Positions 1,192 through 36,171 are shown, counted from the first letter of the stretch. The stretch is 64,000 nt of DNA from an uncultured Verrucomicrobiae bacterium (GCA_963769025.1 CAVYKI010000003.1:672001-736000), one strand, 5' to 3'. Notes: generated from the sequence alone by a model not told the origin. A program made the numbers and translations.

Positions 1192-1230
1192 TCCGGATCC
1201 GGACTTTCGCGGCAAAAGCCGGTGTTTCGA

Positions 1231-3391: not shown

Positions 3392-3426
3392 GAAGGGGTG
3401 GTGGGGTTGCAAGGTGTCGCGCCCTT

Positions 3427-6315: not shown

Positions 6316-6362
6316 GTTTTCTCCGCGACGCGTCCTGCCGCCGTCACGCCGGGCGCGCAGCT

Positions 6363-7013
6363 CTACGGCACCGTCACGCGGATGTTGCGGAACCACGTCG
6401 GGTCGCCGTGCTCGGTGAGCATCAGTTTCCCGCGGCCGGGGGCGAACCCCTCCTTGTTCTTGAACTTGCTCTTCGCGATCGCGGCCTTCCACTCGTCGGA
6501 TTTCGTGTCGGCCGAGGAGCAGAGCTTTCCGTTCAGCCAATGCTCGATCTTGCCATCCTTCGCCACGATGCGGCTGCTGTTCCATTCGCCGATCGGCTTG
6601 AGGATCTTGTCCTTCGCGGAATCGATGATGTCGTAAATGCTGCCCGTGTTGTGGCTCCCGCCCTTGAGCCCGTCGGCGTGCTTCTGGTCGTCGATCATCT
6701 GATACTCGATGCCGAGCCACTCCTTGCCGCCAACTTTCGTGACCCAGTATTTGATGCCGTTGTTGCCGCCATCAGCCAGCTTCCAATCCCACTCGAGCAC
6801 GAAATCCGAGTATTCCTTTTCGGAAAGCAGGTTGCCGCCGCCCTTGCCCGCGAGATGAATCACGCCGCCGTCTTCCACGACCCAGCCGGGACCGGGCTTC
6901 TCGCCCTTCGCATCCCGGAAATCGGCGAGCGTGAGCGTGACGGTATCGGCGACGGACCACGCGGAAGCGCAGAGCGCAAATGCCACGGTGAGGAGAAGAC
7001 GGGAGGTTTTCAT
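6363..7013 (-). CDS. DUF1080 (3-keto-disaccharide hydrolase family) secreted protein
   Basis: Signal peptide MKTSRLLLTVAFALCASAWS; YSDFVLEWDWK, GGNNGIKY, GIEYQMIDD, GEWNSSRI, IEHWLNG and WFRNIRV motifs. Confidence 0.9.
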   Translation of the reverse strand: MKTSRLLLTVAFALCASAWSVADTVTLTLADFRDAKGEKPGPGWVVEDGGVIHLAGKGGGNLLSEKEYSDFVLEWDWKLADGGNNGIKYWVTKVGGKEWLGIEYQMIDDQKHADGLKGGSHNTGSIYDIIDSAKDKILKPIGEWNSSRIVAKDGKIEHWLNGKLCSSADTKSDEWKAAIAKSKFKNKEGFAPGRGKLMLTEHGDPTWFRNIRVTVP

Positions 7014-7278
7014 GGAGGAGTGGGTTTGGTATTTGAACGGGGCGCATGCGCCCATTTGAGACGCGTCGCGGGAGCGCGAACGTTGCGAGTTTGCCTGCGC
7101 GTGGCGAGTCTCAAAATGGAGGACGGACGCAGCCGCGCGGCTGTGCGGGCAGCCGTGGAGGGAGGCGGGCCGGCGCTGCTTTGGCTTGTTCCCGCGACAC
7201 CGACGCAGCACGGTTCCTCCGCCCGGCCGCGCCTGCAGCCTGCGCGCCTTTTCATCCTCACTCCATCGACCGAACCCC

Positions 7279-21100: not shown

Positions 21101-24100
21101 AGGTTGAGCGTGTTGACCTGCGCGCCGGAGTCATCGGTCAGGCGTCCGGCCCCGCGGAGGGTGAGGCGGCCATACACGTCGAACACGGGCGATGCGCTGT
21201 TGCCGGTGAGTTCCAGCAACCGCGGCGATCGACCCGGCATCCGCCACGCGGAAGACGGTGGTGTTGCCGGTGTAGCTCTGGTCGCCGTAGATGCGGATGC
21301 TCGCACCCGAGCCCGAGGGCGTGGCACCCGGGAAAATGGGTGCTTTTCCGAGCTCCACGGAGGCGGTCCCGGTGAGCACGTTCGAATTCACGATGGTGAG
21401 GGTGCCGGAATTGCTGCCGCTGAAGATGTAGCGGTTGTCCACGGTCGCCCCGAGGGTGTCCGCGGTGTAGAAGGTATTCGACACTGCGGAGATGCCCCAC
21501 TGGCCGGAGCCGAGCCGGGCGAGGTTGATGGGCGTGGTCCAGAGACCTTCGCTCAGCCCGAGTGCGATGGAGCCGTCCGTGAGCGAACGCAGGCCGTAAT
21601 CGGTGAGCGGCGCATCCGTGAGCAGGTCCACGCGCGTGGTCGAGCCGCGCTCCGAGCCGTAGATGCGGACTTCCTGGTTGTTCCCGGGATGGAGGACGTT
21701 CGCGGCGGTGAGGATGTTCGAAGGCGCGGTGATGCGGATCGCGGAGCCCTGGTTGACGATGATGTCGCCCGTGCCGGCGTTGGACGTCGCAGTATTCACC
21801 AGCGTGATGCCCGGGGAGCGGATGTCATCCAGCCCACGGGTGCCGAAGATGAACGTGCCACCGGTGATGACCACGCCGCCGCTCCACGTGGCGCTGTTGT
21901 CGCCGCCGATGGAAAGATCGGAGCCGCCGATTTTCGTTCAGCGTGTAGCCCTTGCCACCGTCGGTGATGGTGCCGGCGAGGACGAGCTGGCTGTCCGTCT
22001 GGATCCGGGCGTGGTTCGTCAGCGTGATCGTGCCATCGAAGCGCGGGATGAAATTGTTCGATTGGTTCGTCAGGAAGCGCTGCACGTCCAAGGTCAGGTC
22101 ATTGAAGACCAGCAGCTTGTTCTGACCGGCGCCGGTCGCGCGATCCGTGCGGAAAATGGAGTCGCCGCCCTGGTGGACGACGTTGTTGCCGATGTTGATG
22201 CGCTGCTGGTTGCTGGTGCTGTCGCCGATGGCCAGCGCCGTGAACTGGCCGCCGCGCAGCAGGATCGTGGTGGACTGCCGGGATCGGCCGAGGTGTTGGT
22301 CGTCGGCGTGGCCCACGAGTTGTCGTTCACCCACGCGGCGACGGTGCCGCGCGTGATGTCGAGCGTCTCCAGCGTGTTCGGCTTGTTGCCGTTGATGTTG
22401 CTCAGCGTGAGCGTGCCCGCGCCCGCCTTGACCAGCTTGGAACCGGCGGTGCCGAGGATCTGGCCGTTAAATTCCTGGCTGCTGTCCTCGCGGCCCACGG
22501 TGAGCGTGTTGCCGCCGAGGATCAGCGTGCCGGCGGAGAACTGGAACGAGTTGCTCGGGTTGAGCGCGGAGAGGTTGCCGAACTCCTGGTCAAAGCCGCC
22601 CAGGTCCACCGTCGTGCCCGGGGACATGATGAGGACCGAGCCGCTGGTGCCGGCCAGATTCGAGAAGAACGGCAGCACATTCGCCGCGGTGAATTTCAGC
22701 GTGCCGCGGTTGAGCTCGATGTTGCCCTGAAACTGCTGCACCGCGCCGATCTCCAGCGTGCCGGCGCCGAACTTCGTGAGGACGGTGGTCAGCGTGTTGT
22801 TGGAGTTGTTGCGGAAGTTCCGGATCGGGACGTTCAGCGAGGAGATTGCCGCGTCGTCCACGTAGAGCGAGAGGGCGGTGTCCTCGATGTTGATGCGCGA
22901 GCCCGCGGCGCCGTTAATGTCGGCGCCGTTGTTCAGGATGATGCCGCCGCCGTTGGCCGGCGTGGCGGTGTCTCCGACGAGCAGCCGGAAGCCGCCGAGA
23001 TCGATGTTGGTATCCGTGCGGAACGCGAAGACCCCGCGGTCGGCCGTGAGCGTGCCGCCAACACCGGTGGCGTCGAAGACCTGCGTGGAGCCGGCGACGG
23101 TGTCGATGTTGCCCGTCGCGCCGCCATAGGCGTACGTGCCCACGCTGGTGGCTCCGCCGGTGATGTAGTTCGCGGCGTTGTTCGTGCCGGTCGTGGTGTG
23201 GACCGCCCAGGGACCGACGATGCCGTTCACATTGGCGAGCGCGGAGGTGAAGGTGAAATTTTCCTCCGTGCCGAGCGCGCCGCGGACGGGGACAAAGCTC
23301 ACCGTGCCGGCCGCCCCGCTGCGGACGAGCGAACCGAATCGCAAAGTCGTGGTGAAGGCGTCCGCCGCGAGGTCTTCGACCCCGACGCGGGCACCGCCGG
23401 ACACCGTCAAGGCACCCGTGCTGGTGGTGGTGGAACTTGCTCCCGCCAGCCCGCGCAACTGGACCTCCGCATCGAGGATCGTCATGCCCCCCGTGCCGAA
23501 CGGGCTGCCGCTGGTCGCCTGCGCGTGGCCGATGAGGATGCCCTGCGTGACCGTGGTGAGGCCGGTGTACGTGTTGCCGGTCCCGGTGGAGGGATTGAGG
23601 ATCACGGTGCCGTTGCCCAGCTTGTTGATGTCGAAGCCGCCGCTGATCACGCCGGTGAAGGTGGTATCGCCACCGACGAAGGACGAGAGCGCCATGCCGC
23701 GCGTGGAGAGGCTCACATTGCCGCTGAAGGTCTTCGCGCCCGCGTCCAGGCCGCCGAGGGTCTGCACGTTGCCGGTGCCGGTGTTGATGAAGTTCCGGCT
23801 GATGTTGCGGACGCCCGACGCGAGGATCTCGGAGAAGACATTGTTCCGGAAGGTGACGGTCGAGGAACCCCCACCGAGAGCAGCGTCATCCCCGAGGACG
23901 ATGTAGCCGTTGGAAATCGTGACGGTGCCCAGGAATCCCGGGCTGGCCGCATTCAGAACGAGGGAACCCTCGTCATGCTTCTCGAGGGCGATCGTGCCGG
24001 CGCCGGTGATCGGGCCGGTGATGGTCGTGAGCGCTCCGCGGGTGCGCAGGCTGATGGAGCTCGTGAGCGTAAGGCTCCGGGGATTTCGATCCTGTAGCCG

Positions 24101-27100
24101 TTCGCACCGTCGAAAAACAACGCGCTGCTGCCCGAGCTTCCGACCGTGTAACCCCCGGCATGCGAGATCGTGAGATCGGGCAGGATGACGGTGACATCCT
24201 CCGAGCCCGCAGTCGTCGGGCCGACCGAGATGACGCGCGAGGACTCCGGCATTGCCACCGGTGCCGGTAGTCATCGTGGCATTGGCGATGAGTGTGCGGA
24301 CCTGCGCCATCGATGCGGAAATCGATATCGGAAATGCGGTCGCTGTTCGTGTTGAACTGCAAGCTCGATGCAGGTGAACCGGCGGCGCCGACGTGCGTGA
24401 GGACCAGGCGGCCCTGTTGCACGATGGTGTTGCCGTCATAGGTGTTGTCGGCGGTCAGGATGAGCATGCCGCCGTTCATCTTTTGCAGCGTCTGGGCACC
24501 CGTGGCCTGGTCACCGATGATGCCGTTGACGGTCACGAGGCCCCGGTCCGGGGTGTAAACATTGTCGCTCCCGATGAGGAGGGAGATGGTGTTGGCCGAG
24601 TTGGCGAAGTTGATGTTGTTGACGGCCAGGTCGGTGAAGTTGTTGCCGATGCTGAAGACTTGCAGCGTCCGGTTGGCGTCGAACGTCAGGTCGCCCATTT
24701 GCGTGGTATTGAAACCGCCGCCCCCGAGCGTCGTGGTGCGGATTGTGCCTGTGCCACCGATGACGCTCACATTCCGAGCCGCATACTGCGTGCCGACCGA
24801 GCCGCCGAAGTTCCCACCCGCCACGTCGAGCCGGAGTTCGCCCGAACGGATGGTGATGTCCGCCGTGCCGGTGCCCAGCGCCGCGTTTTCGCCGACCTGC
24901 AGGATGCCGCCGCTGCCGATGGTCACCGTGCCGGAGAAGTTTGGCTGCGCCTTCGGGATGTAGATGGTGCCGTCCGTGTAATTGCGGTCCGTATTGTCCG
25001 GAGCGCCGATGATGAGCGGGAAGGCGCCCTGGAGCACGTCGGCATTCGCGATGGTGAACACTGCGGAGTTGTTGCTGTTGCCACCGAAGCGGTAGGCCTG
25101 GACCGCACCGCCCGAGGGCGAGAGGGTCGTGCCGGTGAAGACGGCGCCGCCATTGTCCGCGCCAAACCAGACCTCGACATTCGGCGCGACCGCAAAGATC
25201 AGCCCGGGGATGTCCGCCTGGAAGTTGCGGTTGCTGCCGAGGATCACGGAGATACGGCGCGCCTGGCCGCTCTGGTTGTTGGCGATCAGGAAATTGTTCC
25301 CGCCCGTGTTGGGAATGCCCCCGGTGGCGGTGAAGCTGTTGAAGGTGATGGTCGGATTACCGAGCGCGTCCAGGCCCGTGCCGTAGCCCGGCCCGAGGTC
25401 GAGCGCCGCAGGCGTGTCGTTGCTGATGTTTTGAAGGATGACCACCTGCCGTGAGCCGATGTTGCCGGGGCCCTCGATGTAGAGGAGGCCGCCCTGGTTG
25501 ATCTGAATGTCGTTGCCCGCGACGTTTGCGCCCGCAGTGCCGGTGCCGCTCAGCCAGACTTCGCCTTCGCTGATGATGGTGCCGCCCTCGTAGCTCTTGG
25601 GCGTGTTGAAGATCAGTTCGCCACCGCCGCGCTTGACGATGCCGCCATTGGTGATGTCGCCCGAGATGATGCCCATCACCGCGCGGTTTCCGCCGGACGC
25701 GCTCCCATCGAGGCGGATGTAGCGCTGCTCTCCGCCGAGATCGAGGGCATTGACGAGCGTGGCGACATGCGTGGCGTTGCCGCCATTGAGCGTGAAGACA
25801 CCGGGATTGAACGTCGCGCTGCCCCACGTGACCGCGGAGCCCATGCCGCCGAAGTTGATGTCGATCGGCGCACCATAGGCCGAAAATCCGGACCCGGTGC
25901 CGCCGAGGAACTGCACCTGCCCGACTCCCGTGCCGAGGGCGCGCGTGAAGTGGCCGTCGTTTTCGTACGTGCTCTGGTTGATCGCCGACCCGCCGAAGGT
26001 GAGATTGCCCGAGCCGAGCGCCACGGCTTTGGAGCCGATGACCCCGCGGAACTGGCCTTCGTTGATGAACGTGGTGCCGGTGTAGCTGTTGGCGGTCACG
26101 AAGGAAGCCGTGCCGCCCCCGGTCTTGACAACCGAGACCTTGTTCAGGCCGTTATCCGTGACGTCGGAGATGATGGTGCTCGAGTTCGTGCCGATGAGAT
26201 ACAGCTCGTAACTGCTGGCCGCACCCGCGGTGAGGAAGGGCACGGAGATCGTGTGCGTGGTGTTGCCGGTCGTGATGACGCCGCCGGCGTCCACGATGAG
26301 CGTCGTCCCCGGGTCGCCACTGAGCGTGCGCGCCGTGGTGCCCGCCATGTTCAGCGACTGAACAGTGCGGTTCGCGGTGATGGTGCGGTTGCCGCTGGTG
26401 ACCTTGATGTTCTGCCCCGCTGCCCAAGTCCCCTCCGCGGTGTCGATGGCGTAGTCTGCATTGCCCAAGGTCGCATAACCAAAGCCACCCAAGGTGGTGT
26501 CATTGTACTTCAGGAATTCAGTCTGCGTGGTCGAACTGCCGAACCCGTAAGCCCAGCCGCCGACGAAGGCCACATCGCCAGTACCCTCGATGGCGGAATT
26601 GAGGATCCTGTATTGCGCTCCGGCACCGATGCCATTGGCCGCGCCACCATCGCCAGACATGCGAAGTGTAGTGCCAGCGTTGCGGGCGAAGCTGGTCAGC
26701 GTGATCGTGTGAGCAGCACCGCTCGTGGTATCCCGGAGATCGATGAGCGCGTCGCCTGACGTGAGCGTCACGGGGCCGACCACTTCATTCCAAACCGTGG
26801 TGTTGGTATTGTTGAACGCATTGTTTTCCAAGCGGATGCGCCCGGCGCTCAGGAAGATTGGAATATCGTCATCGACCTGATTCTGAAAGGCGGCCCCACC
26901 CGTCGTCTGGGTCGCGAGCATCTGCAGAAGGCCATTCTTAATCGTGATCGACGAGATGTTCTCGTAGCCGTTGACCCCGGTGGTCACGCTGGAACCCTCC
27001 GCACGAAGTTCACCCAACTCCGATAAAATCGTGCCGCTCACGGTCGACGCGGTGTTCGTGATACGAAAACCGCTGAGGCCGTAGTGGACAATGTTGCCGG

Positions 27101-28562
27101 TCCCGGTGACCACGCCGGAGAGGGAGACAAACCCGATGCCGCCCGCGCGCAGCGTATACCCTGGCGTAGCGCCCATGGAAAATGCGCCACTGAGCGTGAA
27201 CGTGCCCGTGAGGTCCGCTTGAATGCGCGCATCGTCGGCGAGGGTCACGGCACCGTTGACCGTCGTGCCGTTCGCACCCATCAGATTGCGCAGCGCGCCG
27301 TTGTTCCGGAAGCCGTTGCCGCTGATCGTGACGATCTCCGCCGGGTTGCCGATGGCGCCCGAGCCGTTCGCATCCGGTCCGAAGGCGAGCGTGCCGCCGG
27401 CAGTCACCACGGTCTCGTTGCCGGCCCCGATGGCACCGAGCACCGCGCCATCGTTGGCGAACGGCACGTCAAGGATCATGCCCCCGCTGATCGTCGTCAC
27501 GCCCGTGTAGGAACTCGTGCCGCGAAGGACCAGTGTGCCGTCGCCCGTCTTGCTCAGCCCGCCGCCACCCGAGATGTTGCCGGTGGAGACGACGAGACCC
27601 TCGGCGACATTGATGTCCCCCGAGAATGAATTCGCCCCGGAGAGCACCAGCGTCCCCGTTCCGAGCTTGGTGAGACCGCCGGTGTTCGTGCTGTCGATGA
27701 TGCCGAACATTTCCACATTCTGGCCGTTCGTATCGAGTTTGATGGATGCGGCGCTGTTCTTGATGACCGGCGAGTAGTCCGTCCCCGTGGCGCTGTCCGC
27801 CGTGTACTGCAGCGTGCCGCCGCCGAAGGTAATGACGCCCACGGTTCCCAAGGCGTCCGCGCTGCCTGCACGCAGGATGCCGGCGTTGATGAAAGTGTCG
27901 CCCAGGTAAGTCGCCATCCCGCCGAGCACCAGATTACCCGCGCCCGACTTCGTGAGCGACCAGAAATTGCCACCGTCATCGATATCCGAAAGCACCGTGA
28001 GCGTCTTGCCCGCGGCGACATTCCAGTCGTTGTTCCCGCCGAGGAGGACAGAACCCCCGAGCCCGCTCCGGATGGTCGCCGACTCGTTTGCGATGATGCC
28101 GGTGTTCAGCGTGAGGCTGTACGTGTCCGTGAAAATCGTGTAGGTCCCGCTGTTCGGCGTATTGAACGTGAGACTGCCCGCGGTGACGGCCGACCCGAGC
28201 GCCACGGTGCGGGCGATGCCCGAGGTGCCGCCACCGAAGATCGCGTCGTCGGGAGTGGCGTTGTTCCATGTCGTATCGCCGGCGCCCGTGTTCCAGTTTC
28301 CGATGCCGTTGGCCCAGATCTGATACTGGTTGGTGGTGAAACCGAGATTGCCGTCCTGAACTGCGGCACCGTCCCCGGTGAGAACATCCCATATCAGCGA
28401 AGCCCCCCGGGCCGGCGCGACCGTGGTCGCCAGCATGACAGAAGCCGCGAGCAGCGCCGCGGAGCCCGCAAGGATGCGACTGCAAACCGGCTTGCGAGAT
28501 TCGAACGCCGGCTGCTTTTTGTGTTTGCGGCTCGTGCGGAGGTTGAGGCGGTTTGCTTTCAT
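15164..28562 (-). CDS. Giant surface protein 1 (~4,460 aa): autotransporter-associated beta-strand (passenger) repeats plus PEP-CTERM; ~10 frameshifts
   Basis: Start MKANRLNLRTSRKHKK..ILAGSAALLAASVMLATTVAPARG (long signal peptide); many LTKxGxGTLxLxGxNxYxGxTxxxxGxL repeats; G/T/N/A-rich. The frame continues across junctions at ~24290, 24245, 24080, 22285, 21935, 21225, 20940, 20235, 20165 and 17415. Ends VPEPATSALIGSIALCALIGYRERRR. Confidence 0.85.
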
Positions 28563-28808
28563 TGGATAAGGAGGGTTGGGTTCGCTCGGAGGGGGAGATT
28601 GCGTGATGAGAAAATGGGGGTTTGCTCGCAGATGCTTCAGAGGGGCAGCACGTGCGCGCTTCCCCCCGCGCAAGGCGGGCATTCGATCGGGCATCGCCGT
28701 GCTCCGGAGCCGCGCGGACGTACGCGGTTGATGCGGAAATTTATCACGCGCAGGCGGGAAGTGCTGGAGGGGGTCGTTTTCATTCGGGAGTCAGTGCTGA
28801 CAGCCCGA

Positions 28809-28934
28809 GAAATAGGCCACGGACGCCAATCCGCGCAAAACGATCACAAGACCCCAGAAACCGAGGGCCGGATGGCTAATCAAACGACAAATCCGTGGCA
28901 GTTTTTACGACACGAATGTCGTGTTGCGAAGCCG
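28809..28934 (-). promoter_or_regulatory. Conserved upstream element / putative promoter of giant protein 1 (copy 1)
   Basis: Minus strand GCAACACGA-N4-CGTGTCGTAAA-N41-GGTTTCT-N10-GATCGTTTTGC; TTGCGC-N18-TATTTC. Aligns without gaps to 31176-31301. Confidence 0.7.
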
Positions 28935-29313
28935 CTCCGCGTGGCTCTGAAACACGGGACTCCCGGCCTCATCAGAGGGAATGCCGCCCACTCGCCTGCC
29001 AATCCTACGGAAACCACCGTCCGGACTCACGACGAAGGCGCGTCGTCGAAACATTCGCCGCAGCGTGCGGGAACCGGCGGCGGCGATTTGGAAACTGCCG
29101 AGGCCGGTCCGTGAATGCGGGTCGAAACAACCATCCGCAGAGCCCCTGTGACAATCGCGAAGGCGCGTAGGCTAGACGCCTTCCTAATTTATTATCTCAC
29201 ACGGGGAAAGTCGTGTGCGGCATCGCCGTGAGCCGTGAAGTCGCCTCCTGCGTCGGGTGCACCCGCGCGTCCTACCGCCCTTCGAAAACGCGGGCCGGGC
29301 CCGGGCGCCGCAG

Positions 29314-29997
29314 TCACTCCTCCAAATCCTTCACCCAGTTCGCGGCGACGGAATACAGCTGCGTGGCGCTGCCGACCCCGAGCTTCTCCCGGACGCGGGC
29401 GCGGTACGTCTCCACGGTCGAATTCCCGAGGTTCAACGCTTTCGCGATGTCCTTCACGCTATGCCCCCGGCCGATGAGTTGGAAAATCTCCAGTTCACGG
29501 TCGGTCAGCGCCTCCACCCCCATCTGGGTCGTCGAAGCCGAGCCCGAGGCCATCCGTTTCAGCAGGCTCGATGTCACCTCGGCACTCAAATAAATCTCGC
29601 CGGCCAACACCTGCCTCATGGCCTTCATCAGCTCGGACGCCGGCTGCGATTTGTTGATGTATCCCCTGCCGCCAGCCTGCAAAACGCGCTCCGCGTAGAG
29701 CGACTCCTTGTGCATGGACAATACGAGCGTTGGCAGCTGGATCTCCTGCGAACGGATATCCTTGAGAAATTCCAACCCCCCAGGCCCGTCCTTCAGGCTG
29801 ATGTCCACGACGGCGAAATCCGGGCTGGCCTGCCGGATGATCTCCATGGCATCCCTGATATTGTCCACGGCACCGCATATCTCCATGTCCGGTTCCTCGG
29901 TGATGATTCGCGCAATCTGGTCGCGAAACATGGGGTGATCCTCGACGAGAAGCACTTTGATCTTTTTGGCGTCCGTTTGCTGGTTTGATGGACTCAT
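29314..29997 (-). CDS. NarL/LuxR-family response regulator
   Basis: KVLLVEDHPMFR, VVDISL, VLSMH, GYINK; HTH LTDRELEIFQLIGRG..IAKALNL..TVETYRARVREKL. Confidence 0.93.
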   Translation of the reverse strand: MSPSNQQTDAKKIKVLLVEDHPMFRDQIARIITEEPDMEICGAVDNIRDAMEIIRQASPDFAVVDISLKDGPGGLEFLKDIRSQEIQLPTLVLSMHKESLYAERVLQAGGRGYINKSQPASELMKAMRQVLAGEIYLSAEVTSSLLKRMASGSASTTQMGVEALTDRELEIFQLIGRGHSVKDIAKALNLGNSTVETYRARVREKLGVGSATQLYSVAANWVKDLEE

Positions 29998-31052
29998 GGG
30001 CTGAGAGTGTTGGTTCGTCGCTTAGCTCCGGCATCGTCTGAAAGCAAGCAGACGACCCGCGTTCCCCGGGGGATGCGGGGAAGCAATTGAATCAGGGCCC
30101 CCATCTGCGCGGCCCGGTAATTCATCGTGCGAAGGCCAATTCCCCTCGTCATGCCCGATTCGGGCCGGACTCCGATACCGTCGTCCGCGATCTCGAGTTC
30201 GACCCGCCCTCCCGCTGTGGACAGTTTCACGGCGATGTTTCGCGCCTTGGAATGTTTGATTGAGTTGCTCACTGCTTCCTGGGCGATCCGATAGAGGTGC
30301 ATCGCCGCCTCGGGTTCCAGTCTTGCCGTGTGCCCGGATTGCGAAAAAGTGACCCGGACGCCCTCAGCCACGATGGTGCTCATCGATACGAGTTCATCCA
30401 GCGCCACAGGAAGTCCTTCGCTGCCCATCTGGACGGGAAAAAGTCCGTGCGCAAGCCGCCGGGTCTCCGTTAGCGCTTTCCTCACGTAGCCTTCCGCTTC
30501 GCGGCACTTGGCGGCTTCGTCCGGGCGCTCCGGGGCCAGTCGTTTCGCCAGCGACTCCATCGCGAGCGCGGTGCCGGAAAGCAACTGGCACACTCCGTCG
30601 TGCAATTCACGGCCGAAATGGCGCTGCTGTTCCTCAAGCTCGTTCAAGATATCCCTCCGAAGCTCTGCTTCCCGCTGCAAATCCCTCTGAACCGCTCCTG
30701 CCCTCTCTCGCTCGTACGCCTCCAAATTTCTCAGGAGCGCCGCCCCGAAAGCGACGAAGAGCAAGTACGCAGTGCGGGTGACGGTCACCCACGCAAACGC
30801 GATTTCGGAATGATAAGGGTGGGAGCTCCAGTTCCCCAGCCACCAAACCGACGCAGACGCCAATGCGAACGCCACCGCTACCCGTCGGTTGACCGCGTAA
30901 CCAACCACGAAAATCGGCAGCCCGTAAAAAAAGAACATGCTGAATTCCCATCCGGTGATAAAATCGAGCGTGCCGATGCCGAGCGTGGCAACCGCCGCCA
31001 GCACGACCACCCAACGTTCGGGTAATTTTCGGAAATCGGACAGCCAGGACAT
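29994..31052 (-). CDS. NarX/UhpB-type sensor histidine kinase (HisKA_3) with an N-terminal 4-TM domain
   Basis: Four TM segments; RELHDGVCQ H-box; LYRIAQEAVSNSIKH, IADDGIG and GIGLRTM. ATGA overlap with the regulator. Start uncertain (31052 preferred; 31151 possible). Confidence 0.9.
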   Translation of the reverse strand: MSWLSDFRKLPERWVVVLAAVATLGIGTLDFITGWEFSMFFFYGLPIFVVGYAVNRRVAVAFALASASVWWLGNWSSHPYHSEIAFAWVTVTRTAYLLFVAFGAALLRNLEAYERERAGAVQRDLQREAELRRDILNELEEQQRHFGRELHDGVCQLLSGTALAMESLAKRLAPERPDEAAKCREAEGYVRKALTETRRLAHGLFPVQMGSEGLPVALDELVSMSTIVAEGVRVTFSQSGHTARLEPEAAMHLYRIAQEAVSNSIKHSKARNIAVKLSTAGGRVELEIADDGIGVRPESGMTRGIGLRTMNYRAAQMGALIQLLPRIPRGTRVVCLLSDDAGAKRRTNTLSP

Positions 31053-31175
31053 CTGCGCTTGATGGAACAAATGGAGTGGTTCTGCAATCATTCCCAGCTT
31101 GGGAGAGGCGTGCGCATCGATACCTTGCCACGTCTGGAACGGTTTGCGCATTCGAGCTTAGTGGGGCACCAGGAT

Positions 31176-31301
31176 CGTTTTGGCAAAACGAAGCCCGTGT
31201 CGTAAACATTGCGACCAACTTGTAGCGTTAGCGACCGTCGCGTGATGGGTTTCTACGGCCTGCCGATCGTTTTGCAGGCCACGCTCCCGTAAGCGTACTT
31301 G
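31176..31301 (+). promoter_or_regulatory. Conserved upstream element / putative promoter of Verru_Chthon A (copy 2)
   Basis: GCAAAACGA-N4-CGTGTCGTAAA-N41-GGTTTCT-N10-GATCGTTTTGC; TTGCAG-N18-TACTTG. Same spacing as copy 1. Confidence 0.7.
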
Positions 31302-31320
31302 GGGTTTAACACCATTTGCC

Positions 31321-34300
31321 ATGGACACCCCAAGAACCGCCCCATCCCGATCCGAAAACGCCCCCCCCGGTCCCGAAACGCCGCCAACCCCCTTCGTCCG
31401 TCGCCTTCGCCGTCCCAAGGCGGTTGCGCTCGTGCTCGTCATCGTATTCGTAGTCCTGCTCAGCGGACTCATCGTCTCCTTCTTTGCGCGTGTCGCGACG
31501 GACCTCGGCTCCTCCCGCTCCTACGCCGAAGGCGTGGCGGTCCGGCAGTTGGCCGACTCCGCCGTGAGCGTCGTCATGGGCCAGATCCGTGCGGCCACGA
31601 GCCTGCCGAACGCCGCGTGGGCATCCCAGCCCGGGATGATCCGTACCTATCGCAGCGCGACCGGACAGCCCGGACCCGACGCGGCTGTGTTCTTCAAGCT
31701 CTACTCGTCAAACAACCTGACCCTCTCAGGCGCAGATATCGCGAATTTCGATCCGACCGTCACCGACCAATCCCTGTCCTCCAGCGCCGTCGAAGTCCCC
31801 CTCGGAATCGGCGGCTGGCGGCAGCAGCCGGCGTTTTTCACCGACCTCAATGAGCCGGTGGAAGTGGCTGACCCGGAAGCTGGGGCGGGCATCAGCAAGA
31901 CCATCAAACGTTACCCCATTTTCGACCCGTCGGTCGCCGCGATCTACAACCCCGGCAGCCGCCCCGCCAAACCCGCATGGAAGGTGGAAGGATGCGAAAT
32001 CGCCCTCTCCGCCAGCGATCGGACGGGAAACGATGCCCCCATGCCAGTCCGGTGGATCTACATCCTCGCGGACGGCACCCTCACGACCCCCGTCCCCCTC
32101 ACCCGGCCCGCGAACGGAACCTTGGGCTTGATCGCGACATGGTCCACCGTCGGGCCGGATGGCACTTCCAAGACGGGCGTCCCGACAAAAACCAACCCCA
32201 TCGTCGGGCGCATGGGCTTCTGGACCGATGACGACTCGTGCAAGATCAACCTGAATACCGCGGGCGGATTCGTGCTCCCGTCCGGCGTGGACGAAGACGT
32301 CAACCTGAACTACACGAAGCCCACCAAGACGCTGCCCGAAAAGAACCCCGGTTACTATGCGGGCTCCTTTTGGGATACGCCGCGGGTGCAGACGTATTTC
32401 GACCGGGGCATCAATAACACCAATGTCGAAAACTACCGCGGCGGGCTTTCCAACTCCCAGCCCGGGCGGAACGAGTTCCAGCGCTACCCCGGCCATCCCT
32501 CGACGACCTCCCTCGGACTCGTGTTCAAAAATCTCCTGCCGGGCGTCTCGACGGGCTTCAGCTCGGCCAAGCTGTACGCGATGACCCCGCGCCTCATGCC
32601 CGGCGGTTCGAAGAATGGCAACGCCCGCCTTGAGACCAAATTCGACCTGCCGTTGCCAATCAAATCCCGCTACACGGCGAGCAAGCCCGGCACGGCCGGC
32701 TATCATCTCTTTGGCTCCGTCGATGAGCTCGCCTTCACAACCCTCAATGGCGAACGGAAATCCGTGGAGGATGCCATCAACGAATGGGTGGCAAGCCAGC
32801 CCACGCCGACCGATGGCTTGCCGCCAGAGGTCCCGCTGCAGGAGGGTTCGCTCACCCCCGATATGGTGGACAAAGTGCGCTTCTTCCTTACGGCAAAGGG
32901 CCGCTCGCCGGAGCTGAACCTTTTCGGCCGTCCCCGGGTGGCGATCTGGCCGGTTCCCAGCGCGAAACGCGAAGCGCTTCTTCAGAGCTACAACATCCGG
33001 AATGCGAGCGACGATTTCATCCGCTTCTGCGCGACAGTCGGGCGGAACAGCGATCCGACGACGCAGGCCGTCACCCGGCAGGGCGAATTCATCTTCGACC
33101 GCGAGGATCCCTATAGTTCCACGGTTGATTTCAACCTGCCCCGCAATCAGCAGGTTTTCGGCTATCTGCGGGAACTCACCTCGTCCTCCGGTGGCCAGAT
33201 TCCCGGGTTCGGCGGCAACTTCGAAACGAAGTACGCCAACGGCGCCGGCGGGCGGGATCAGATATTGACCGAGATCTTCGACTACATCCGGACCATCAAC
33301 CAGAAGGACGGCTCCCGGGAACGGACGATCGACGAAAAAACCGTCGCTCGCTCGCTCGTGAACAATCAGCTCAAGGCCGCCTCCCGCTACGCCCCCCACG
33401 CCATCGTGATTCCCACGCGCACGACCTTCGCTGGCAGGAAGGTCTCAGGCTTTGGCCGCTATCCCACCATCTCAGAAGCCACGTTGGTATTCTACAATGG
33501 CGGCTACACGTGTCAGCCTAAGAAGGGAAGTGACCTCGAGAAGGCGGACCTGCCGGACGGCGGGTCTGCGCGGACTGGAGGAAACAACGCCCTGGTCACC
33601 ATCTATGACCTGACAAAATCCCCCGGCGATCCCCGGGATCCCGCGTCGGCCCAGGCGAATCTGGATCGTACATCCGACTGGGCGAAGGCAAATGTCGAGC
33701 GATGGACCGGACAGCTCATCCGCGCGTTCGTGATATTCGAAACGTTCAATCCCATGCAGGGCTACGCGCCGGTTGATAACTTTACCAACATCAGCCTGGT
33801 GGACACCACGAAAGTGGGAACCGACGGGAAGCTGCAGCGGTACAATTTTGCTGACACCAACAAGGGCTTCTTCGTCCACGAGCTGAAGATCAACGGCCAG
33901 TTTGCCATCCAGACGGCCGGGTCGGGCGGCGCAAAGCCCATCGGCATCGGCGCCGGCACTAGCGGCGGCACCATCAAGAACTCATTCACCCGCACCTCGG
34001 GCGAAACGTGGGGAGGCCGCAATTTTGGCGGAATGGAAGGCTTCTTCCACACGATGCAGGACGACATTTCCTCCATTCCTTCCGCTGCCAACTATTATGC
34101 ATTCCAGTCCAGATGCGAGGATCTCGTCCGCGACGGCGTGCGCGTCGGACTCGAAGACAAGACGTTCGACTTCTTCGGCGGCGACATGGACCTGTTCATC
34201 CGTTACGAGGACAAGGCCGGCCACAACGAACAGATTCAGAAAATCACCCTGAACTTTCCAAACGCCAAGGGGTGGCCGTTGCCGACCCCGTCGTACCGCC

Positions 34301-36000
34301 TCGATACCGGGGGATTTGACAATCGGAATCCGGCCTTTGACAGCAACGGGGCCGACTCATGGCACGCGTGGGGCACATACTTGAAAAAGCACAATCTGCC
34401 CAGCGGATGGGGAATGGGCTACAACTTGCCTTCGAGGATCGCATGGAGCCGGGAGCACTCCTACAATCCTTGGACGAAATTCGACAAAAACGGAAAGCAG
34501 GTGGGGGACGGCTACCGCTACGCCAATCGTTTCCTGCAGATCGTCCAGCCAGGAGATACGATCCGCAGTCTCGTGGTCGGCGGCGGCGACCCGGCGGCGG
34601 CAGACCCGCGGATCGGTGCGCTGCAGCAGGAAGGCGGGACCATGCAGCCACATCCCGACTATTTCAGCACCACCAAGCGCCGCGCCGAGACGCTCCGTTA
34701 CGCCAGCGGGGGGTTCTACTTTGATCCATCGACGCCCACGTATGCGGAGCCGCCGGAAAGTTCCACCCAGCCGACCACAGGCTCGTTCATCCCACTCGCC
34801 GGCACGAAGTACAAGCCTGGTTACGGCCCGGATCTGGTGCGGACGGATTCCAAGGGGCAACCGTTCGTGGCTAAGCGGTCTGACGGCCAGCTCGCCGATT
34901 TTGACACAGGCATTGGCAGCTTTCCGGACGGCGCATTTGCCGGGAAGGCCGACGAAGGCAATGTGGCCGAGTATTGGCAGGACATCTGGGGCGTGTGGCA
35001 CTATGTGGAGCCCTACTTTACGACATGGGTCTATGATCCGCCGCTCGACACCTATTTCTCCCCAAATCGCCAGGTCCCGGGGCCCGTGATGTTCGGCTCC
35101 TTGCCGGCACCGCACAAAGATTGGTCGAAGTCCGGTTGGAAGACGCTGCTCTTCTGCCCGAACCCCGCCGGAGCCGGCCATCCCGGTGCACAGTCGCCAC
35201 CGGACCACCTGCTGCTGGACCTTTTCAACATGCCGGTGGTCGAGCCCTATGCCATCAGCGAACCGTTTTCCACCGCGGGAAAGGTGAACCTGAACTACCC
35301 GATGGTGCCATTCAGCTTCATCAAGCGCACGACCGCCCTGCGCGCCGCCCTGCATCCCCTTCGGGTGACTGCCATCCCGCAGTTCTTTGTCGATGGGAGC
35401 AAGCAGTTCCGCTATAAGGGGCAGGATAATGTCGAAAACTTCCGCTATCTCGTGGATCGGGATGAGACGCTGAAGGCGTTCGACGATTACTTCGACCAAT
35501 ACAAGAAGAACAGAAGCGGCGGCTTCTTTAAGTCTGCCTCTCAGATCTGTGAGCGCTACCTCTACCCGAAGGGCACGACCGTCGATGGAAGCTCGGTGAA
35601 ATTCACGAAGGGCGAAGGGCAGATCAAGGCGTTCTGGGAGAAAAACCAGCTCACGGGCGACAACGTCCGCGAGAAGCCGTACGCGGACCTCTATCCGCGG
35701 ATAACCACGAAGTCGAATACCTATACCATTCACTACCGCGTCCAGACGCTGCGCCAGCGAAAGTACACGGGAGATGCCAAAGGCGAAGATGCCTATTATC
35801 GCACTTTCGATGAAAGCCGGGATCGCGTGCTGGCTGAATTCCGCGGCAATACGACGATCGAGCGCTATCTCGACCCCGAAGATCCGCGCTTCCAGCCCTC
35901 ATACGTCCCGGCCAAGGACAGGATCGATGTCGAGAAAAAGTCCCTCGAGGAGGCTTACCGGTTCCGGATCATCTACAACAAGCGCTTCTCACCTTGGTAG
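31321..36000 (+). CDS. vccA: Verru_Chthon cassette protein A (TIGR02600-like)
   Basis: Pilin-like N-terminal helix ALVLVIVFVVLLSGLIVSFF; WASQPGMIRTY, FKLYSS, DLNEPV, PMPVRWIY, NPIVGRMGFWTDDDSCKINLNTA, NEFQRYPGHP, FSPNRQ, PPDHLLLDLFNMPVVEPYAISEPFSTAGKVNLNY, TGDNVRE and YPRITTKSNTYT. Confidence 0.9.
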   Translation: MDTPRTAPSRSENAPPGPETPPTPFVRRLRRPKAVALVLVIVFVVLLSGLIVSFFARVATDLGSSRSYAEGVAVRQLADSAVSVVMGQIRAATSLPNAAWASQPGMIRTYRSATGQPGPDAAVFFKLYSSNNLTLSGADIANFDPTVTDQSLSSSAVEVPLGIGGWRQQPAFFTDLNEPVEVADPEAGAGISKTIKRYPIFDPSVAAIYNPGSRPAKPAWKVEGCEIALSASDRTGNDAPMPVRWIYILADGTLTTPVPLTRPANGTLGLIATWSTVGPDGTSKTGVPTKTNPIVGRMGFWTDDDSCKINLNTAGGFVLPSGVDEDVNLNYTKPTKTLPEKNPGYYAGSFWDTPRVQTYFDRGINNTNVENYRGGLSNSQPGRNEFQRYPGHPSTTSLGLVFKNLLPGVSTGFSSAKLYAMTPRLMPGGSKNGNARLETKFDLPLPIKSRYTASKPGTAGYHLFGSVDELAFTTLNGERKSVEDAINEWVASQPTPTDGLPPEVPLQEGSLTPDMVDKVRFFLTAKGRSPELNLFGRPRVAIWPVPSAKREALLQSYNIRNASDDFIRFCATVGRNSDPTTQAVTRQGEFIFDREDPYSSTVDFNLPRNQQVFGYLRELTSSSGGQIPGFGGNFETKYANGAGGRDQILTEIFDYIRTINQKDGSRERTIDEKTVARSLVNNQLKAASRYAPHAIVIPTRTTFAGRKVSGFGRYPTISEATLVFYNGGYTCQPKKGSDLEKADLPDGGSARTGGNNALVTIYDLTKSPGDPRDPASAQANLDRTSDWAKANVERWTGQLIRAFVIFETFNPMQGYAPVDNFTNISLVDTTKVGTDGKLQRYNFADTNKGFFVHELKINGQFAIQTAGSGGAKPIGIGAGTSGGTIKNSFTRTSGETWGGRNFGGMEGFFHTMQDDISSIPSAANYYAFQSRCEDLVRDGVRVGLEDKTFDFFGGDMDLFIRYEDKAGHNEQIQKITLNFPNAKGWPLPTPSYRLDTGGFDNRNPAFDSNGADSWHAWGTYLKKHNLPSGWGMGYNLPSRIAWSREHSYNPWTKFDKNGKQVGDGYRYANRFLQIVQPGDTIRSLVVGGGDPAAADPRIGALQQEGGTMQPHPDYFSTTKRRAETLRYASGGFYFDPSTPTYAEPPESSTQPTTGSFIPLAGTKYKPGYGPDLVRTDSKGQPFVAKRSDGQLADFDTGIGSFPDGAFAGKADEGNVAEYWQDIWGVWHYVEPYFTTWVYDPPLDTYFSPNRQVPGPVMFGSLPAPHKDWSKSGWKTLLFCPNPAGAGHPGAQSPPDHLLLDLFNMPVVEPYAISEPFSTAGKVNLNYPMVPFSFIKRTTALRAALHPLRVTAIPQFFVDGSKQFRYKGQDNVENFRYLVDRDETLKAFDDYFDQYKKNRSGGFFKSASQICERYLYPKGTTVDGSSVKFTKGEGQIKAFWEKNQLTGDNVREKPYADLYPRITTKSNTYTIHYRVQTLRQRKYTGDAKGEDAYYRTFDESRDRVLAEFRGNTTIERYLDPEDPRFQPSYVPAKDRIDVEKKSLEEAYRFRIIYNKRFSPW

Positions 36001-36171
36001 GCCTTGGAGCCGCCGGGCGCATGGAAGCGCCACCCGCAAAGCACCGGCAGGACGGGCACCAGCATCCGTTTACAAAACAGCGACGCCTCTCACAGGCCGC
36101 GTGTGCATTGGGCGATCGTTCGCGCGTGCTCCCAGGTCAGCGGAGCACGGATGCTGTATCCGTTTCCTGCC

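What the first reader, a model, noticed from the sequence alone, without database searches (positions are those of the whole stretch)
28809..31301. Ungapped ~100-120 bp upstream element shared by giant 1 and vccA, bracketing the NarL-type system
Seen: 28914->28835 (minus) and 31196->31275 (plus) both read CGTGTCGTAAA-N41-GGTTTCT-N10-GATCGTTTTGC, 53/80 identical by hand count with no gaps. Similarity extends upstream (GCAA.ACGA, forming an ACGA-N8-TCGT dyad) and downstream (TTGC..-N18-TA.TT, -35/-10-like). Each copy points toward its own gene, and the two genes are unrelated in sequence. Inference: a common activator-dependent promoter, most simply read by the response regulator encoded between them. 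This is direct sequence evidence that a Verru_Chthon subunit and a giant PEP-CTERM protein form one regulon.
Basis: partly seen in the sequence, partly recalled or inferred. Interest (0 to 1): 0.85.

Follow-up and report, generated by a model that had tools for sequence, protein, structure and literature searches.

The report
Shared regulatory DNA flanking a two-component system
Two inverted copies of a ~120-bp non-coding DNA element bracket a sensor-kinase/regulator gene pair and point outward at a giant surface-protein gene and a vccA gene; they are most likely a shared regulator-binding module, which is a plausible but fairly ordinary arrangement and is not yet proof of a regulon.

Summary
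Copy A (28914->28835, minus) and copy B (31196->31275, plus) match at 53 of 80 positions without gaps. The best of 500 shuffles reached 42, and the next-best site in the window reached 38. Similarity covers about 120 nt, and the window holds only these two copies.

Conservation is block-wise: CGTGTCGTAAA, then 41 nt, GGTTTCT, 10 nt, GATCGTTTTGC. The core of the last block, TCGTTTTG, is the most enriched word in the elements. All 4 occurrences in the window lie inside the elements. Two of them form a perfect 17-bp palindrome in copy B, next to the kinase operon.

No Rfam match, shared RNA fold, coding signal or recognisable sigma-70, sigma-54 or ECF promoter was found. No transposase or recombinase gene was found either.

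The best reading is a duplicated operator and promoter module bound by a dimeric helix-turn-helix protein. The likeliest binder is the NarL-type regulator encoded between the copies. This rests on position only.

The "one regulon" claim is overstated. It has two members, the -35/-10 reading is weak, and the ACGA-N8-TCGT dyad is not distinctive. The gene adjacency is not visibly conserved in relatives. The source genome could not be reached, so genome-wide and ortholog tests were impossible.

The parts
28835..28954 (-). Copy A of the element, oriented toward giant 1. It lies in the 619-bp gap between the RR stop (29314) and the giant 1 ORF start (28694).
   Evidence: Ungapped alignment to copy B: core 53 of 80, -40..-1 22 of 40. 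nhmmer A+B profile E = 3e-39.
31156..31275 (+). Copy B of the element, oriented toward vccA. It lies in the 268-bp spacer between the divergent HK start (31052) and the vccA start (31321).
   Evidence: HK start taken from the 352-aa database form. The vccA 1559-aa form is identical to the database form.
28904..28914 (-). Block 1 in copy A: CGTGTCGTAAA (contains half-site variant TCGTAAA).
   Evidence: Exact in both copies.
31196..31206 (+). Block 1 in copy B: CGTGTCGTAAA.
28856..28862 (-). Block 2 in copy A: GGTTTCT.
   Evidence: By my rough estimate, not computed in a call, a 7-run could arise by chance in a spacer that is 47% identical.
31248..31254 (+). Block 2 in copy B: GGTTTCT.
28835..28845 (-). 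Block 3 in copy A: GATCGTTTTGC (half-site TCGTTTTG). It is the block nearest the gene.
31265..31275 (+). Block 3 in copy B: GATCGTTTTGC. It ends 45 nt before the vccA ATG.
31175..31191 (.). Perfect 17-bp palindrome TCGTTTTG-G-CAAAACGA (7-3-7 geometry), specific to copy B. It is the candidate high-affinity dimer site serving vccA and the divergent HK-RR operon.
   Evidence: Three TCGTTTTG in the 268-bp spacer; 0 of 5000 shuffles reach 3.
28910..28924 (.). Palindrome specific to copy A: ACACGA-CAT-TCGTGT. It overlaps block 1. The TCGT ends face inward, the opposite arrangement to the copy B palindrome.
28774..28781 (+). Extra half-site TCGTTTTC downstream of copy A, inverted relative to the element and 62 bp from block 3.
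28880..28887 (-). Near half-site TCGTTTGA inside the spacer of copy A.
29314..29997 (-). NarL/LuxR-type response regulator (REC + GerE HTH), the candidate reader of the element.
   Evidence: Pfam REC 2.1e-22, GerE 2.6e-16. Below all NCBIfam equivalog cut-offs. Nearest solved structure is NarL 1a04, 1.8e-26.
29994..31052 (-). Sensor histidine kinase (HisKA_3 + HATPase_c). It has an N-terminal block of hydrophobic helices with very short loops. An alternative upstream ATG lies at 31151.
31321..36000 (+). vccA (Verru_Chthon cassette protein A). It stands alone here: the HK is divergent on one side and giant 2 convergent on the other.
   Evidence: TIGR02600 785.3 bits against a cut-off of 332.3. 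ORF map and GC3 phase.
15164..28694 (-). Giant 1: a PATR-repeat protein with a PEP-CTERM tail, broken into at least 5 overlapping frames. The likely true start is M45 at 28562.
   Evidence: Intact 4,425-aa relative at 53% identity.

Best explanation
The two copies are paralogous cis-regulatory DNA modules of about 120 bp in inverted orientation. One sits in front of giant 1 and one in front of vccA.

Each carries an array of TCGT-plus-T/A-run half-sites (consensus about [G/A/T]TCGTTTTG[C/G]) at fixed spacing. A dimeric helix-turn-helix transcription factor binds these half-sites. The likeliest candidate is the phosphorylated NarL-type response regulator encoded between the copies.

Block 3, nearest the gene, would place the regulator next to RNA polymerase. 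Block 1 and the sites upstream of it would add cooperative binding. The perfect palindrome found only in copy B would be the primary site, and it would also feed back on the divergent kinase-regulator operon.

**Shown:** the repeat, its block structure, the half-site enrichment, the gene identities and the orientations.

**Inferred:** that the element acts as DNA, that the neighbouring regulator is the binder, the sign of regulation (activation or repression), and where transcription starts.
For: 1. **Not chance.** 53 of 80 identical against a maximum of 42 in 500 shuffles. The window's next best is 38.
2. **Block-wise conservation at fixed spacing.** 29 of 29 identical in blocks, 24 of 51 outside, no indel over 120 nt.
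3. **Enriched word.** An unbiased word count ranks TCGTTT, TCGTTTT and TCGTTTTG (with complements) first among 6-, 7- and 8-mers in the elements. TCGTTTTG occurs 4 times in the window, and all 4 are in the elements.
4. **Recurrence outside the A/B register.** The word recurs on both strands: the 17-bp palindrome at 31175-31191 and the inverted site at 28774-28781. Three occur in the 268-bp spacer, and 0 of 5000 shuffles reach 3. Independence of orientation fits recognition of double-stranded DNA.
5. **Geometry.** The 7-3-7 palindrome puts the half-site centres about one helical turn apart. From my knowledge of HTH dimers, this is usual for them.
6. **Position.** The copies bracket a REC+GerE regulator and its kinase, and copy B lies in the divergent kinase/vccA spacer.
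7. **Rivals tested weakly.**
   - No Rfam hit.
   - The two copies fold differently, with z-scores of -0.44, -2.42, +1.07 and +0.38.
   - The consensus fold is only -20.5 kcal/mol.
   - Mismatches show no codon phase: 21/26/30.
8. **Documented analogue.** BvgA is a response regulator whose paper cites the NarL structure. It binds an inverted-heptad primary site plus further dimers every 22 bp down to the -35. The bvgAS and fhaB genes are divergent and share a promoter region (passages of PMC7250471 and PMC7253368).
Against: - There are only two copies, both local. No third copy was found in 64 kb by ungapped scan or by gapped nhmmer profile.
- The clustering of identity into blocks is only moderately significant on its own (P = 0.015-0.035).
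- Neither copy has a recognisable sigma-70, sigma-54, ECF or Bacteroidetes-type core promoter.
- The strong palindrome of copy B is degenerate in copy A. Copy A's own palindrome has the opposite half-site arrangement, so one binding mode cannot explain both.
- Distances from block 3 to the start codons differ widely: 45 nt for vccA and 140 or 272 nt for giant 1.
- Linkage is not visibly conserved.
  - The kinase's nearest relatives are 55-57% identical and lie on short metagenome contigs.
  - vccA has relatives at 63-70% and giant 1 at 53%.
  - No contig length is shared among the lists shown: the best 120 for the kinase, the best 120 for vccA and 86 for giant 1.
- Nothing ties the RR to the motif except position.
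- The assembly carries many frameshifts, so single-base errors inside the elements cannot be excluded.
Confidence: 0.5

Rival explanations
1. The element is a cis-regulatory module, but a different regulator or sigma factor encoded elsewhere reads it. On this view giant 1 and vccA were already back-to-back with one copy each, and the two-component system was inserted between them later and has nothing to do with the motif.
For: - The kinase lineage is much more isolated than vccA or giant 1. Its best relatives are 57% identical and found only in metagenomes, against 70% and 53% for the other two. No contig length is shared among the lists shown.
- The RR and HK are slightly lower in G+C (0.594 and 0.606) than vccA (0.613), giant 1 (0.64) and giant 2 (0.667).
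- The window holds another two-component system with a sigma-54-type regulator (3579-7367) and a LysR regulator.
Against: - No -24/-12 promoter is present in either copy.
- The strongest palindrome lies on the kinase side of copy B, where an autoregulatory site would be expected.
- Comparing contig lengths is an indirect and incomplete test of synteny.
Confidence: 0.2
2. The repeat is a decaying relic of an inverted duplication, for example one made when the TCS was inserted, and it has no present function. The perfect blocks are chance survivors.
For: - There are only two copies.
- Identity outside the blocks is 24 of 51, about what an old duplicate would show.
- The block clustering P is only 0.015-0.035.
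- No recognisable promoter was found.
Against: - The block-3 core recurs independently in copy B (twice) and downstream of copy A. A decaying duplicate does not predict this.
- No indel occurs over 120 nt despite about 38% substitutions (75 of 120 identical).
Confidence: 0.12
3. The element acts after transcription. It would be either a shared 5' leader RNA bound by a protein or small RNA, or a short upstream ORF running through blocks 2 and 3. In copy B that ORF is ATG 31245 to TAA 31292, 15 codons. In copy A it has the same register from TTG 28883.
For: - Both copies point toward their genes.
- An ORF in the same register exists in both, with a shared G-F-[W/Y]-G-L-x-I-V-L core and two third-position-only differences.
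- Small hairpins follow block 3 in both copies.
Against: - No Rfam hit.
- The folds of the two copies differ and the consensus structure is weak.
- Mismatches show no codon periodicity: 21/26/30 overall, and 2/3/5 in the ORF core.
- The block-3 word also occurs upstream and on the opposite strand, outside any such ORF.
- The copy A ORF needs a TTG start and runs on after similarity ends.
Confidence: 0.08
4. The inverted repeats are recombination substrates. They would be the ends of a mobile or invertible 2.3-kb cassette carrying the TCS. Inversion would swap which outward gene lies downstream of the RR and which gene receives the strong palindrome.
For: - The copies are inverted and bracket the TCS, with identical 11-bp stretches.
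- An 8-bp direct repeat AGGCCACG lies at 28814-28821 and 31276-31283.
- The TCS looks specific to this lineage at this locus.
Against: - No transposase or recombinase was found among the ORFs scanned in the window.
- The direct repeat is not symmetric to the repeat ends: it lies 13 nt out on one side and 0 on the other. By my estimate it has roughly a 1-in-20 chance of arising among the positions tried.
- The spacer has diverged by about half, so there has been no frequent exchange between the arms.
- No match in plasmids.
Confidence: 0.05

Closest known systems
BvgAS-fhaB locus of Bordetella (BvgA operator arrays)
   Same: - A two-component system lies next to, and is divergently transcribed from, a very large surface adhesin gene, and the two share a promoter region.
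- The regulator binds an inverted-heptad primary site, plus further sites on one helix face reaching the -35.
- The same sites serve autoregulation.

These points come from passages of PMC7250471 and PMC7253368. That BvgA belongs to the NarL family and that FHA is very large are recalled.
   Different: - The motif is different: TCGTTTTG here, against the BvgA heptad, whose sequence I did not see in the passages.
- No binding data exist here.
- The kinase here is a small membrane-embedded type, not a BvgS-type multidomain kinase.
- Here the giant gene is co-directional with the TCS, and the divergent gene is vccA.
- No recognisable core promoter is present.
Proteobacterial PEP-CTERM upstream element with PrsK/PrsR (Haft et al. 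2006, PMC1569441, section 7 read in full)
   Same: - It is a bipartite conserved DNA element in the long non-coding region upstream of PEP-CTERM genes.
- The distal motif is sometimes repeated, and the spacer averages 62.8 nt (sd 10.6). Here the spacer between blocks 1 and 3 is 58 nt.
- It is linked to a two-component system.
- That paper states that such motifs were found only in Proteobacteria, and that other regulators and motifs remain to be found elsewhere (conclusion passage).
   Different: - The proximal motif there is a sigma-54 -24(GG)/-12(GC) site. Block 3 here has TTGC but no GG at the right distance, and no TGG-N9-[T/G]GC occurs in either upstream region.
- The regulator there is an NtrC-type enhancer-binding protein. 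Here the adjacent regulator is NarL-type, with no AAA+ domain.
- The NtrC-like pair at 3579-7367 scores far below the PrsR and PrsK cut-offs: 118.7 against 502.6, and 69.3 against 300.
- Motif 1 there ends in TTTACA. Block 1 here reads ...GTCGTAAA.
- Here one of the two target genes, vccA, is not a PEP-CTERM gene.
NarL 7-2-7 heptamer sites and other NarL/LuxR-family palindromic operators
   Same: - The regulator has the same fold family. Its nearest solved structures are NarL, DevR, DesR, VraR and EvgA.
- The copy B site has inverted half-sites of 7-8 bp about one helical turn apart.
   Different: - The half-site sequence is unrelated to the NarL heptamer as I recall it. I did not check this in a paper.
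- The spacing here is 7-3-7.
- The palindrome is present in only one of the two copies.

Membership tests
Operator array of a NarL/LuxR-family response regulator | A REC + LuxR/GerE-type HTH regulator is encoded at the locus. | tested here: met
   Pfam REC 2.1e-22 and GerE 2.6e-16. NarL 1a04 E = 1.8e-26.
Operator array of a NarL/LuxR-family response regulator | Inverted half-sites of about 7 bp lie about one helical turn apart, and are repeated in the promoter region. | tested here: inconclusive
   Copy B has a perfect 7-3-7 palindrome (31175-31191). It is degenerate at the same place in copy A, and copy A's own palindrome has the opposite arrangement. Single half-sites are shared at blocks 1 and 3.
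Operator array of a NarL/LuxR-family response regulator | The regulator binds the sites and changes transcription. | not testable with these tools
   This needs EMSA, footprinting, DAP-seq or genetics.
Operator array of a NarL/LuxR-family response regulator | The proximal site adjoins a recognisable core promoter. | tested here: not met
   The consensus scan found 0 promoter-like sites. A relaxed TTGNNN-N16-19-TANNNT scan found none in either upstream region.
PEP-CTERM upstream element / PrsK-PrsR system (Haft 2006) | A bipartite element lies upstream of a PEP-CTERM gene with a spacer of about 63 nt. | tested here: met
   Blocks 1 and 3 are 58 nt apart, upstream of giant 1, which carries a PEP-CTERM tail.
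PEP-CTERM upstream element / PrsK-PrsR system (Haft 2006) | The proximal motif is a sigma-54 -24(GG)/-12(GC) site. | tested here: not met
   No TGG-N9-[T/G]GC occurs in 28540-29000(-) or 31100-31400(+). The only loose hit, at 31135, is in copy B alone and lies upstream of the element.
PEP-CTERM upstream element / PrsK-PrsR system (Haft 2006) | An NtrC-type regulator PrsR (TIGR02915) and kinase PrsK (TIGR02916) are present. | tested here: not met
   The adjacent RR is NarL-type. The distant NtrC-like pair scores 118.7 against a cut-off of 502.6, and 69.3 against 300.
Structured cis-regulatory RNA (riboswitch or leader) | It matches a described RNA family. | tested here: not met
   Rfam 15 at E <= 10 over 28400-31500 gave only 3 weak, irrelevant hits, none in the elements.
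Structured cis-regulatory RNA (riboswitch or leader) | A shared, stable secondary structure is supported by covariation. | tested here: inconclusive
   The two minimum-energy folds differ, with z-scores between -2.42 and +1.07. The consensus fold is -20.5 kcal/mol over 172 columns. Two sequences are too few for a covariation test.
Terminal inverted repeats of a mobile or invertible element | Inverted repeats flank a discrete segment. | tested here: met
   Copies A and B are inverted and bracket the RR and HK.
Terminal inverted repeats of a mobile or invertible element | A transposase or site-specific recombinase lies in or beside the element. | tested here: not met
   None was found among the ORFs scanned with NCBIfam and Pfam. 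Not every ORF of the window was scanned.
Terminal inverted repeats of a mobile or invertible element | Target-site duplication at the ends, and several copies in the genome. | tested here: inconclusive
   An 8-bp direct repeat exists but is asymmetric to the ends. No other copy in the window or in plasmids. The rest of the source genome could not be searched.
Upstream ORF / leader peptide | An ORF in the same register exists in both copies, with substitutions biased to third codon positions. | tested here: not met
   ORFs exist in both copies, but mismatch phase is 21/26/30 overall and 2/3/5 in the core.

The most novel reading that the evidence does not exclude
This could be a verrucomicrobial counterpart of the proteobacterial PEP-CTERM regulatory box, built on different parts. 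A small membrane-embedded kinase would signal to a NarL-type regulator that binds TCGTTTTG half-sites held in a fixed 120-bp frame. Through that frame it would co-control a giant PEP-CTERM adhesin-like protein and a lone vccA gene. That would tie display of a giant surface protein to the Verru_Chthon (pseudopilin-like) machinery. It would also supply the first cis-element and regulator for either gene class in this phylum.
Probability: 0.25. Interest if true: 0.55.

Novelty: new member of a known kind. Interest (0 to 1): 0.35.

Why it matters
The held paper library appears to contain nothing on how Verru_Chthon cassette genes are controlled. The phrase 'Verru_Chthon cassette' gave 0 papers. 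'PEP-CTERM' + 'Verrucomicrobia' + 'response regulator' gave 3 papers whose titles and abstract starts look unrelated.

The 2006 paper that defined PEP-CTERM says regulators and DNA motifs outside Proteobacteria remain to be found.

If this element is the operator of the neighbouring regulator, it gives a concrete, testable handle: a defined motif, two target promoters and a candidate sensor. That handle bears on when these bacteria deploy giant surface proteins, and on whether vccA works with them.

If it is only a local duplicate, it is an ordinary case of a two-component system sitting beside its targets.

Tried and rejected
  - It gave 15 hits in unrelated phyla, close to my rough chance estimate of about 12.
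  - None had the 58-nt gap or GGTTTC.
  - The window's own locus was not returned, so the source genome is absent or masked there.
  - In hindsight, a protein-anchored fetch with vccA would have been more useful, because vccA has relatives at 63-70% identity in genome assemblies.
- **Closed collections.** The 22-kb contig holding the closest kinase relative therefore stayed unchecked.
- **Rfam.** Nothing relevant.
- **RNA folding.** Single and consensus folds showed no shared structure.
- **Promoter scans.** The sigma-70 consensus, relaxed sigma-70, sigma-54, ECF-like and Bacteroidetes-like scans found nothing shared by both copies.
- **Third copy.** The nhmmer profile and short-word blastn found none in the window. 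The next nhmmer hit, E = 1.8, is copy B's own palindrome.
- **Plasmids.** A distant blastn search found no match.
- **Half-site weight matrix.** Apart from its own 7 training sites, only 183(-), 35856(-) and 38407(+) score 12.5 or more, and they do not cluster. The matrix was trained on the elements, so this test is circular and carries little weight.
- **Upstream ORF.** Considered and rejected as the main reading.
- **Target-site duplication.** Only an asymmetric 8-mer was found.
- **Timed-out script.** timed out and was redone with a proper shuffle.
- **Contig-length synteny test.** There was no overlap, but the lists are truncated and the test is indirect.


Full report
**1. The observation**

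Reading minus 28914->28835 against plus 31196->31275 gives 53 identical positions of 80 with no gap. In 500 dinucleotide-preserving shuffles of the two intergenic regions, the best 80-nt ungapped match averaged 36.9 (sd 1.5, maximum 42). Scanning copy B against the whole window on both strands, the next-best site scores 38.

Identity by segment is:
- 22 of 40 in the 40 nt upstream of block 1
- 53 of 80 in the core
- 9 of 25 in the next 25 nt
- 25 of 100 and 23 of 100 beyond, which is random

The element is therefore about 120 nt long, as the title says.

Conservation is uneven: 29 of 29 in the blocks against 24 of 51 outside. A permutation test on the two runs of 11 gives P = 0.015-0.035, depending on the region taken. 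That is suggestive but not overwhelming.

The window holds only these two copies, by ungapped scan, gapped nhmmer profile and motif search with mismatches.

**2. The surroundings**

- **vccA (31321-36000, plus)** matches TIGR02600 at 785 bits. The database holds the same 1559-aa form.
- **The regulator (29314-29997, minus)** has REC and GerE domains. It falls below every NCBIfam equivalog cut-off. Its nearest solved structures are NarL, DevR, DesR, VraR and EvgA.
- **The kinase** has HisKA_3 and HATPase domains. The database form has 352 residues, so its start is probably 31052, not 31151. Its first 110 residues are mostly hydrophobic helices with short loops. By inference this suggests a membrane-embedded sensor.
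- **Giant 1** carries PATR/TIGR02601 repeats.
  - ORF 23973-28694 ends in out-of-frame-looking sequence.
  - The GC3 phase plot shows coding continuing in other frames without a gap down to 15164.
  - The last ORF ends in a clear PEP-CTERM tail.
  - An intact 4,425-aa relative, 53% identical over the whole N-terminal query, fits one gene of about 4,460 residues.
  - The likely true start is M45 at 28562, ahead of a signal-peptide-like stretch (inference).
- **Strand arrangement.** Kinase, regulator and giant 1 all lie on the minus strand.
  - Copy A sits in the 619-bp gap after the regulator's stop.
  - Copy B sits in the 268-bp spacer shared by the divergent kinase operon and vccA.
  - vccA has no B-D partners beside it. 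It runs straight into the 3' end of giant 2.

**3. What the element is made of**

The core of block 3, TCGTTTTG, occurs four times in the 64-kb window counting both strands, and all four lie in the two elements. Two of these are the aligned block 3. The other two lie upstream in copy B, on opposite strands, and form the perfect palindrome TCGTTTTG-G-CAAAACGA at 31175-31191.

Three copies in a 268-bp spacer were reached by 0 of 5000 dinucleotide shuffles of that spacer. An unbiased count of all 6-, 7- and 8-mers in the elements, with the rest of the window as background, ranks TCGTTT, TCGTTTT and TCGTTTTG first. That background is mostly coding, so the shuffle test is the fairer control.

Other features:
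- Copy A has one more inverted copy (TCGTTTTC, 28774-28781) 62 bp downstream of block 3.
- Copy A also has a near copy (TCGTTTGA) in its spacer.
- Block 1 carries the variant TCGTAAA.
- Shared positions of TCGT/ACGA in both copies are 31188 (reverse), 31200 and 31267, in copy B coordinates.

However, the same pattern occurs six more times elsewhere in the window, so it adds little.

**4. Rival readings tested**

*RNA.*
- Rfam at a permissive threshold gives nothing in the elements.
- The minimum-energy folds of the two copies differ, and only one of four z-scores (-2.42) stands out.
- The consensus structure of the pair is weak: -20.5 kcal/mol over 172 columns, against -50 and -56 for each 146-nt copy alone.
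- Two sequences cannot give a covariation test.

*Short ORF.*
- An ORF in the same register runs through blocks 2 and 3 in both copies. In copy B it has 15 codons from ATG 31245. In copy A it has 30 codons from TTG 28883. The shared peptide core has two third-position-only changes.
- Mismatches show no codon phase (21/26/30; 2/3/5 in the core).
- The block-3 word also occurs outside any such ORF, on both strands.

*Promoters.*
- The consensus scan finds no sigma-70-like site.
- Relaxed sigma-70, sigma-54, ECF-like and Bacteroidetes-like patterns find nothing shared by both copies.
- The proposed -35/-10 is therefore unsupported, and the core promoter is unknown.

*Mobile or invertible cassette.*
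- The copies are inverted repeats around the TCS.
- No transposase or recombinase was found among the ORFs scanned.
- An 8-bp direct repeat (AGGCCACG) exists but is asymmetric to the ends.
- Plasmids hold nothing similar.

**5. Comparative evidence**

This is the weak point of the analysis. It returned 15 hits in unrelated phyla. None had the right spacing or block 2, and the window's own locus was not among them. The source genome is therefore absent or masked there, and neither genome-wide copies nor orthologous upstream regions could be examined.

Protein searches give indirect information:
- The kinase's nearest relatives are 55-57% identical, all on short metagenome contigs. Genome-derived relatives are at or below 40%.
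- vccA has relatives at 62-70% identity, several on large NCBI or ENA contigs. More distant hits are named Chthoniobacteraceae.
- Giant 1's best relative is 53% identical.

No contig length recurs between the listed hits of the three searches: the best 120 for the kinase, the best 120 for vccA and 86 for giant 1. The adjacency of this TCS with vccA and giant 1 is therefore not visibly conserved. This test is indirect and the lists are truncated.

**6. Most likely mechanism**

The pattern has four parts:
- fixed spacing;
- perfect short blocks in a diverged frame;
- a half-site that recurs in both orientations, including a 7-3-7 palindrome;
- a position bracketing a regulator gene and overlapping its own divergent promoter region.

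This is what an operator array for a dimeric helix-turn-helix protein looks like. The regulator encoded between the copies is the simplest candidate. I put about 0.5 on that full reading, and about 0.2 more on the same kind of module read by another factor.

Whether the element activates or represses is open. A site over the presumed -35 and an inverted site downstream of copy A would also suit repression.

**7. Comparison with known systems**

*BvgAS-fhaB.* In Bordetella, the regulator binds an inverted-heptad primary site plus dimers every 22 bp down to the -35. The bvgAS operon and the fhaB gene are divergent and share a promoter region (passages of PMC7250471 and PMC7253368). The logic is the same here. 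The motif, kinase type and gene order differ.

*The proteobacterial PEP-CTERM box.* Section 7 of PMC1569441 describes a 17-nt motif, a spacer of 62.8 +/- 10.6 nt and then a sigma-54 site, read by PrsR. Here the spacer is 58 nt. There is no -24/-12 site, the adjacent regulator has no sigma-54 domain, and the distant NtrC-like pair fails the PrsR and PrsK cut-offs. The element is therefore not a member of that system, though it may be a functional analogue.

That paper states the box is confined to Proteobacteria and that other motifs remain to be found.

The held library has no paper containing 'Verru_Chthon cassette'. It has three containing 'PEP-CTERM', 'Verrucomicrobia' and 'response regulator' together. 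I saw only their titles and abstract starts, and they look unrelated.

**8. Verdict**

This is a new local example of a familiar arrangement: a two-component system beside target genes that share operator sites. It has some added interest because nothing is known about control of vcc genes or verrucomicrobial PEP-CTERM giants. The claim of a regulon rests on two adjacent copies and on position.

Interest is 0.35.

Noticed in passing
window 15164-28694 (minus); 36172 to beyond 64000 (minus): Both giant PATR/PEP-CTERM genes are split into long overlapping ORFs. The GC3 phase switches with no intergenic gap at about 24000, 22000, 21000, 20100, 17300, and at about 41500-42000, 48800, 54300, 58300 and 60200. 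Each is either a frameshift-ridden assembly or a pseudogene. Giant 2 would exceed 27 kb.
   Followed up: partly
window 1107-3412 (minus); 4956-6315 (plus): Ordinary genes are split too. A TonB-dependent receptor has its plug in ORF 2729-3412 and its barrel in ORF 1107-3023. An NtrC-like regulator has its REC domain and the first half of its AAA+ domain in ORF 4956-, and the rest in ORF 5686-6315. This points to indel errors across the assembly rather than anything special about the giants.
   Followed up: partly
window 3579-7367 (plus): A second two-component system of the sigma-54 type (AtoS/NtrC-like) lies about 20 kb from giant 1. It resembles PrsK and PrsR only weakly: 69.3 bits against a cut-off of 300, and 118.7 against 502.6. 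No -24/-12 site was found upstream of giant 1 or vccA.
   Followed up: partly
window 28814-28821 and 31276-31283: An 8-bp direct repeat, AGGCCACG, lies just outside the two copies. It is 13 nt beyond block 3 on the copy A side and immediately after block 3 on the copy B side. It may be chance, at roughly 1 in 20 among the positions tried by my estimate.
   Followed up: partly
window 31321-36171: vccA stands alone. No vccB, vccC or vccD gene follows it, and 171 nt after its stop the 3' end of giant 2 begins on the other strand. By my recollection of the TIGRFAMs description, these genes normally form a four-gene cassette.
   Followed up: no
window 15164-15260 and 36172-36270 (minus): The PEP-CTERM tails of giant 1 and giant 2 are nearly identical: ...EIVPVPEPAT[S/T]ALIG[SI/AV]ALCALIGYRERRR.
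   Followed up: no
window 28955-29313: A further 359 bp of non-coding DNA lies between the regulator's stop and copy A. It contains a GC-rich hairpin followed by TTTT just after the stop, and another ACGA/TCGT palindrome near 29030-29055. Neither was analysed further.
   Followed up: no
window 31245-31292 (plus) and 28883-28791 (minus): Short ORFs in the same register run through blocks 2 and 3 of both copies, with a shared peptide core G-F-[W/Y]-G-L-x-I-V-L. Block 1 carries an in-frame TAA in both. No codon-phase signal supports them.
   Followed up: yes
L004, L007, L008, L009, L011, L015 (gap-53 matches): Six of the chance pattern hits, from Bacteroidota and Gammaproteobacteria, resemble one another across the gap. 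The pattern evidently falls in a conserved coding region of an unrelated gene.
   Followed up: no
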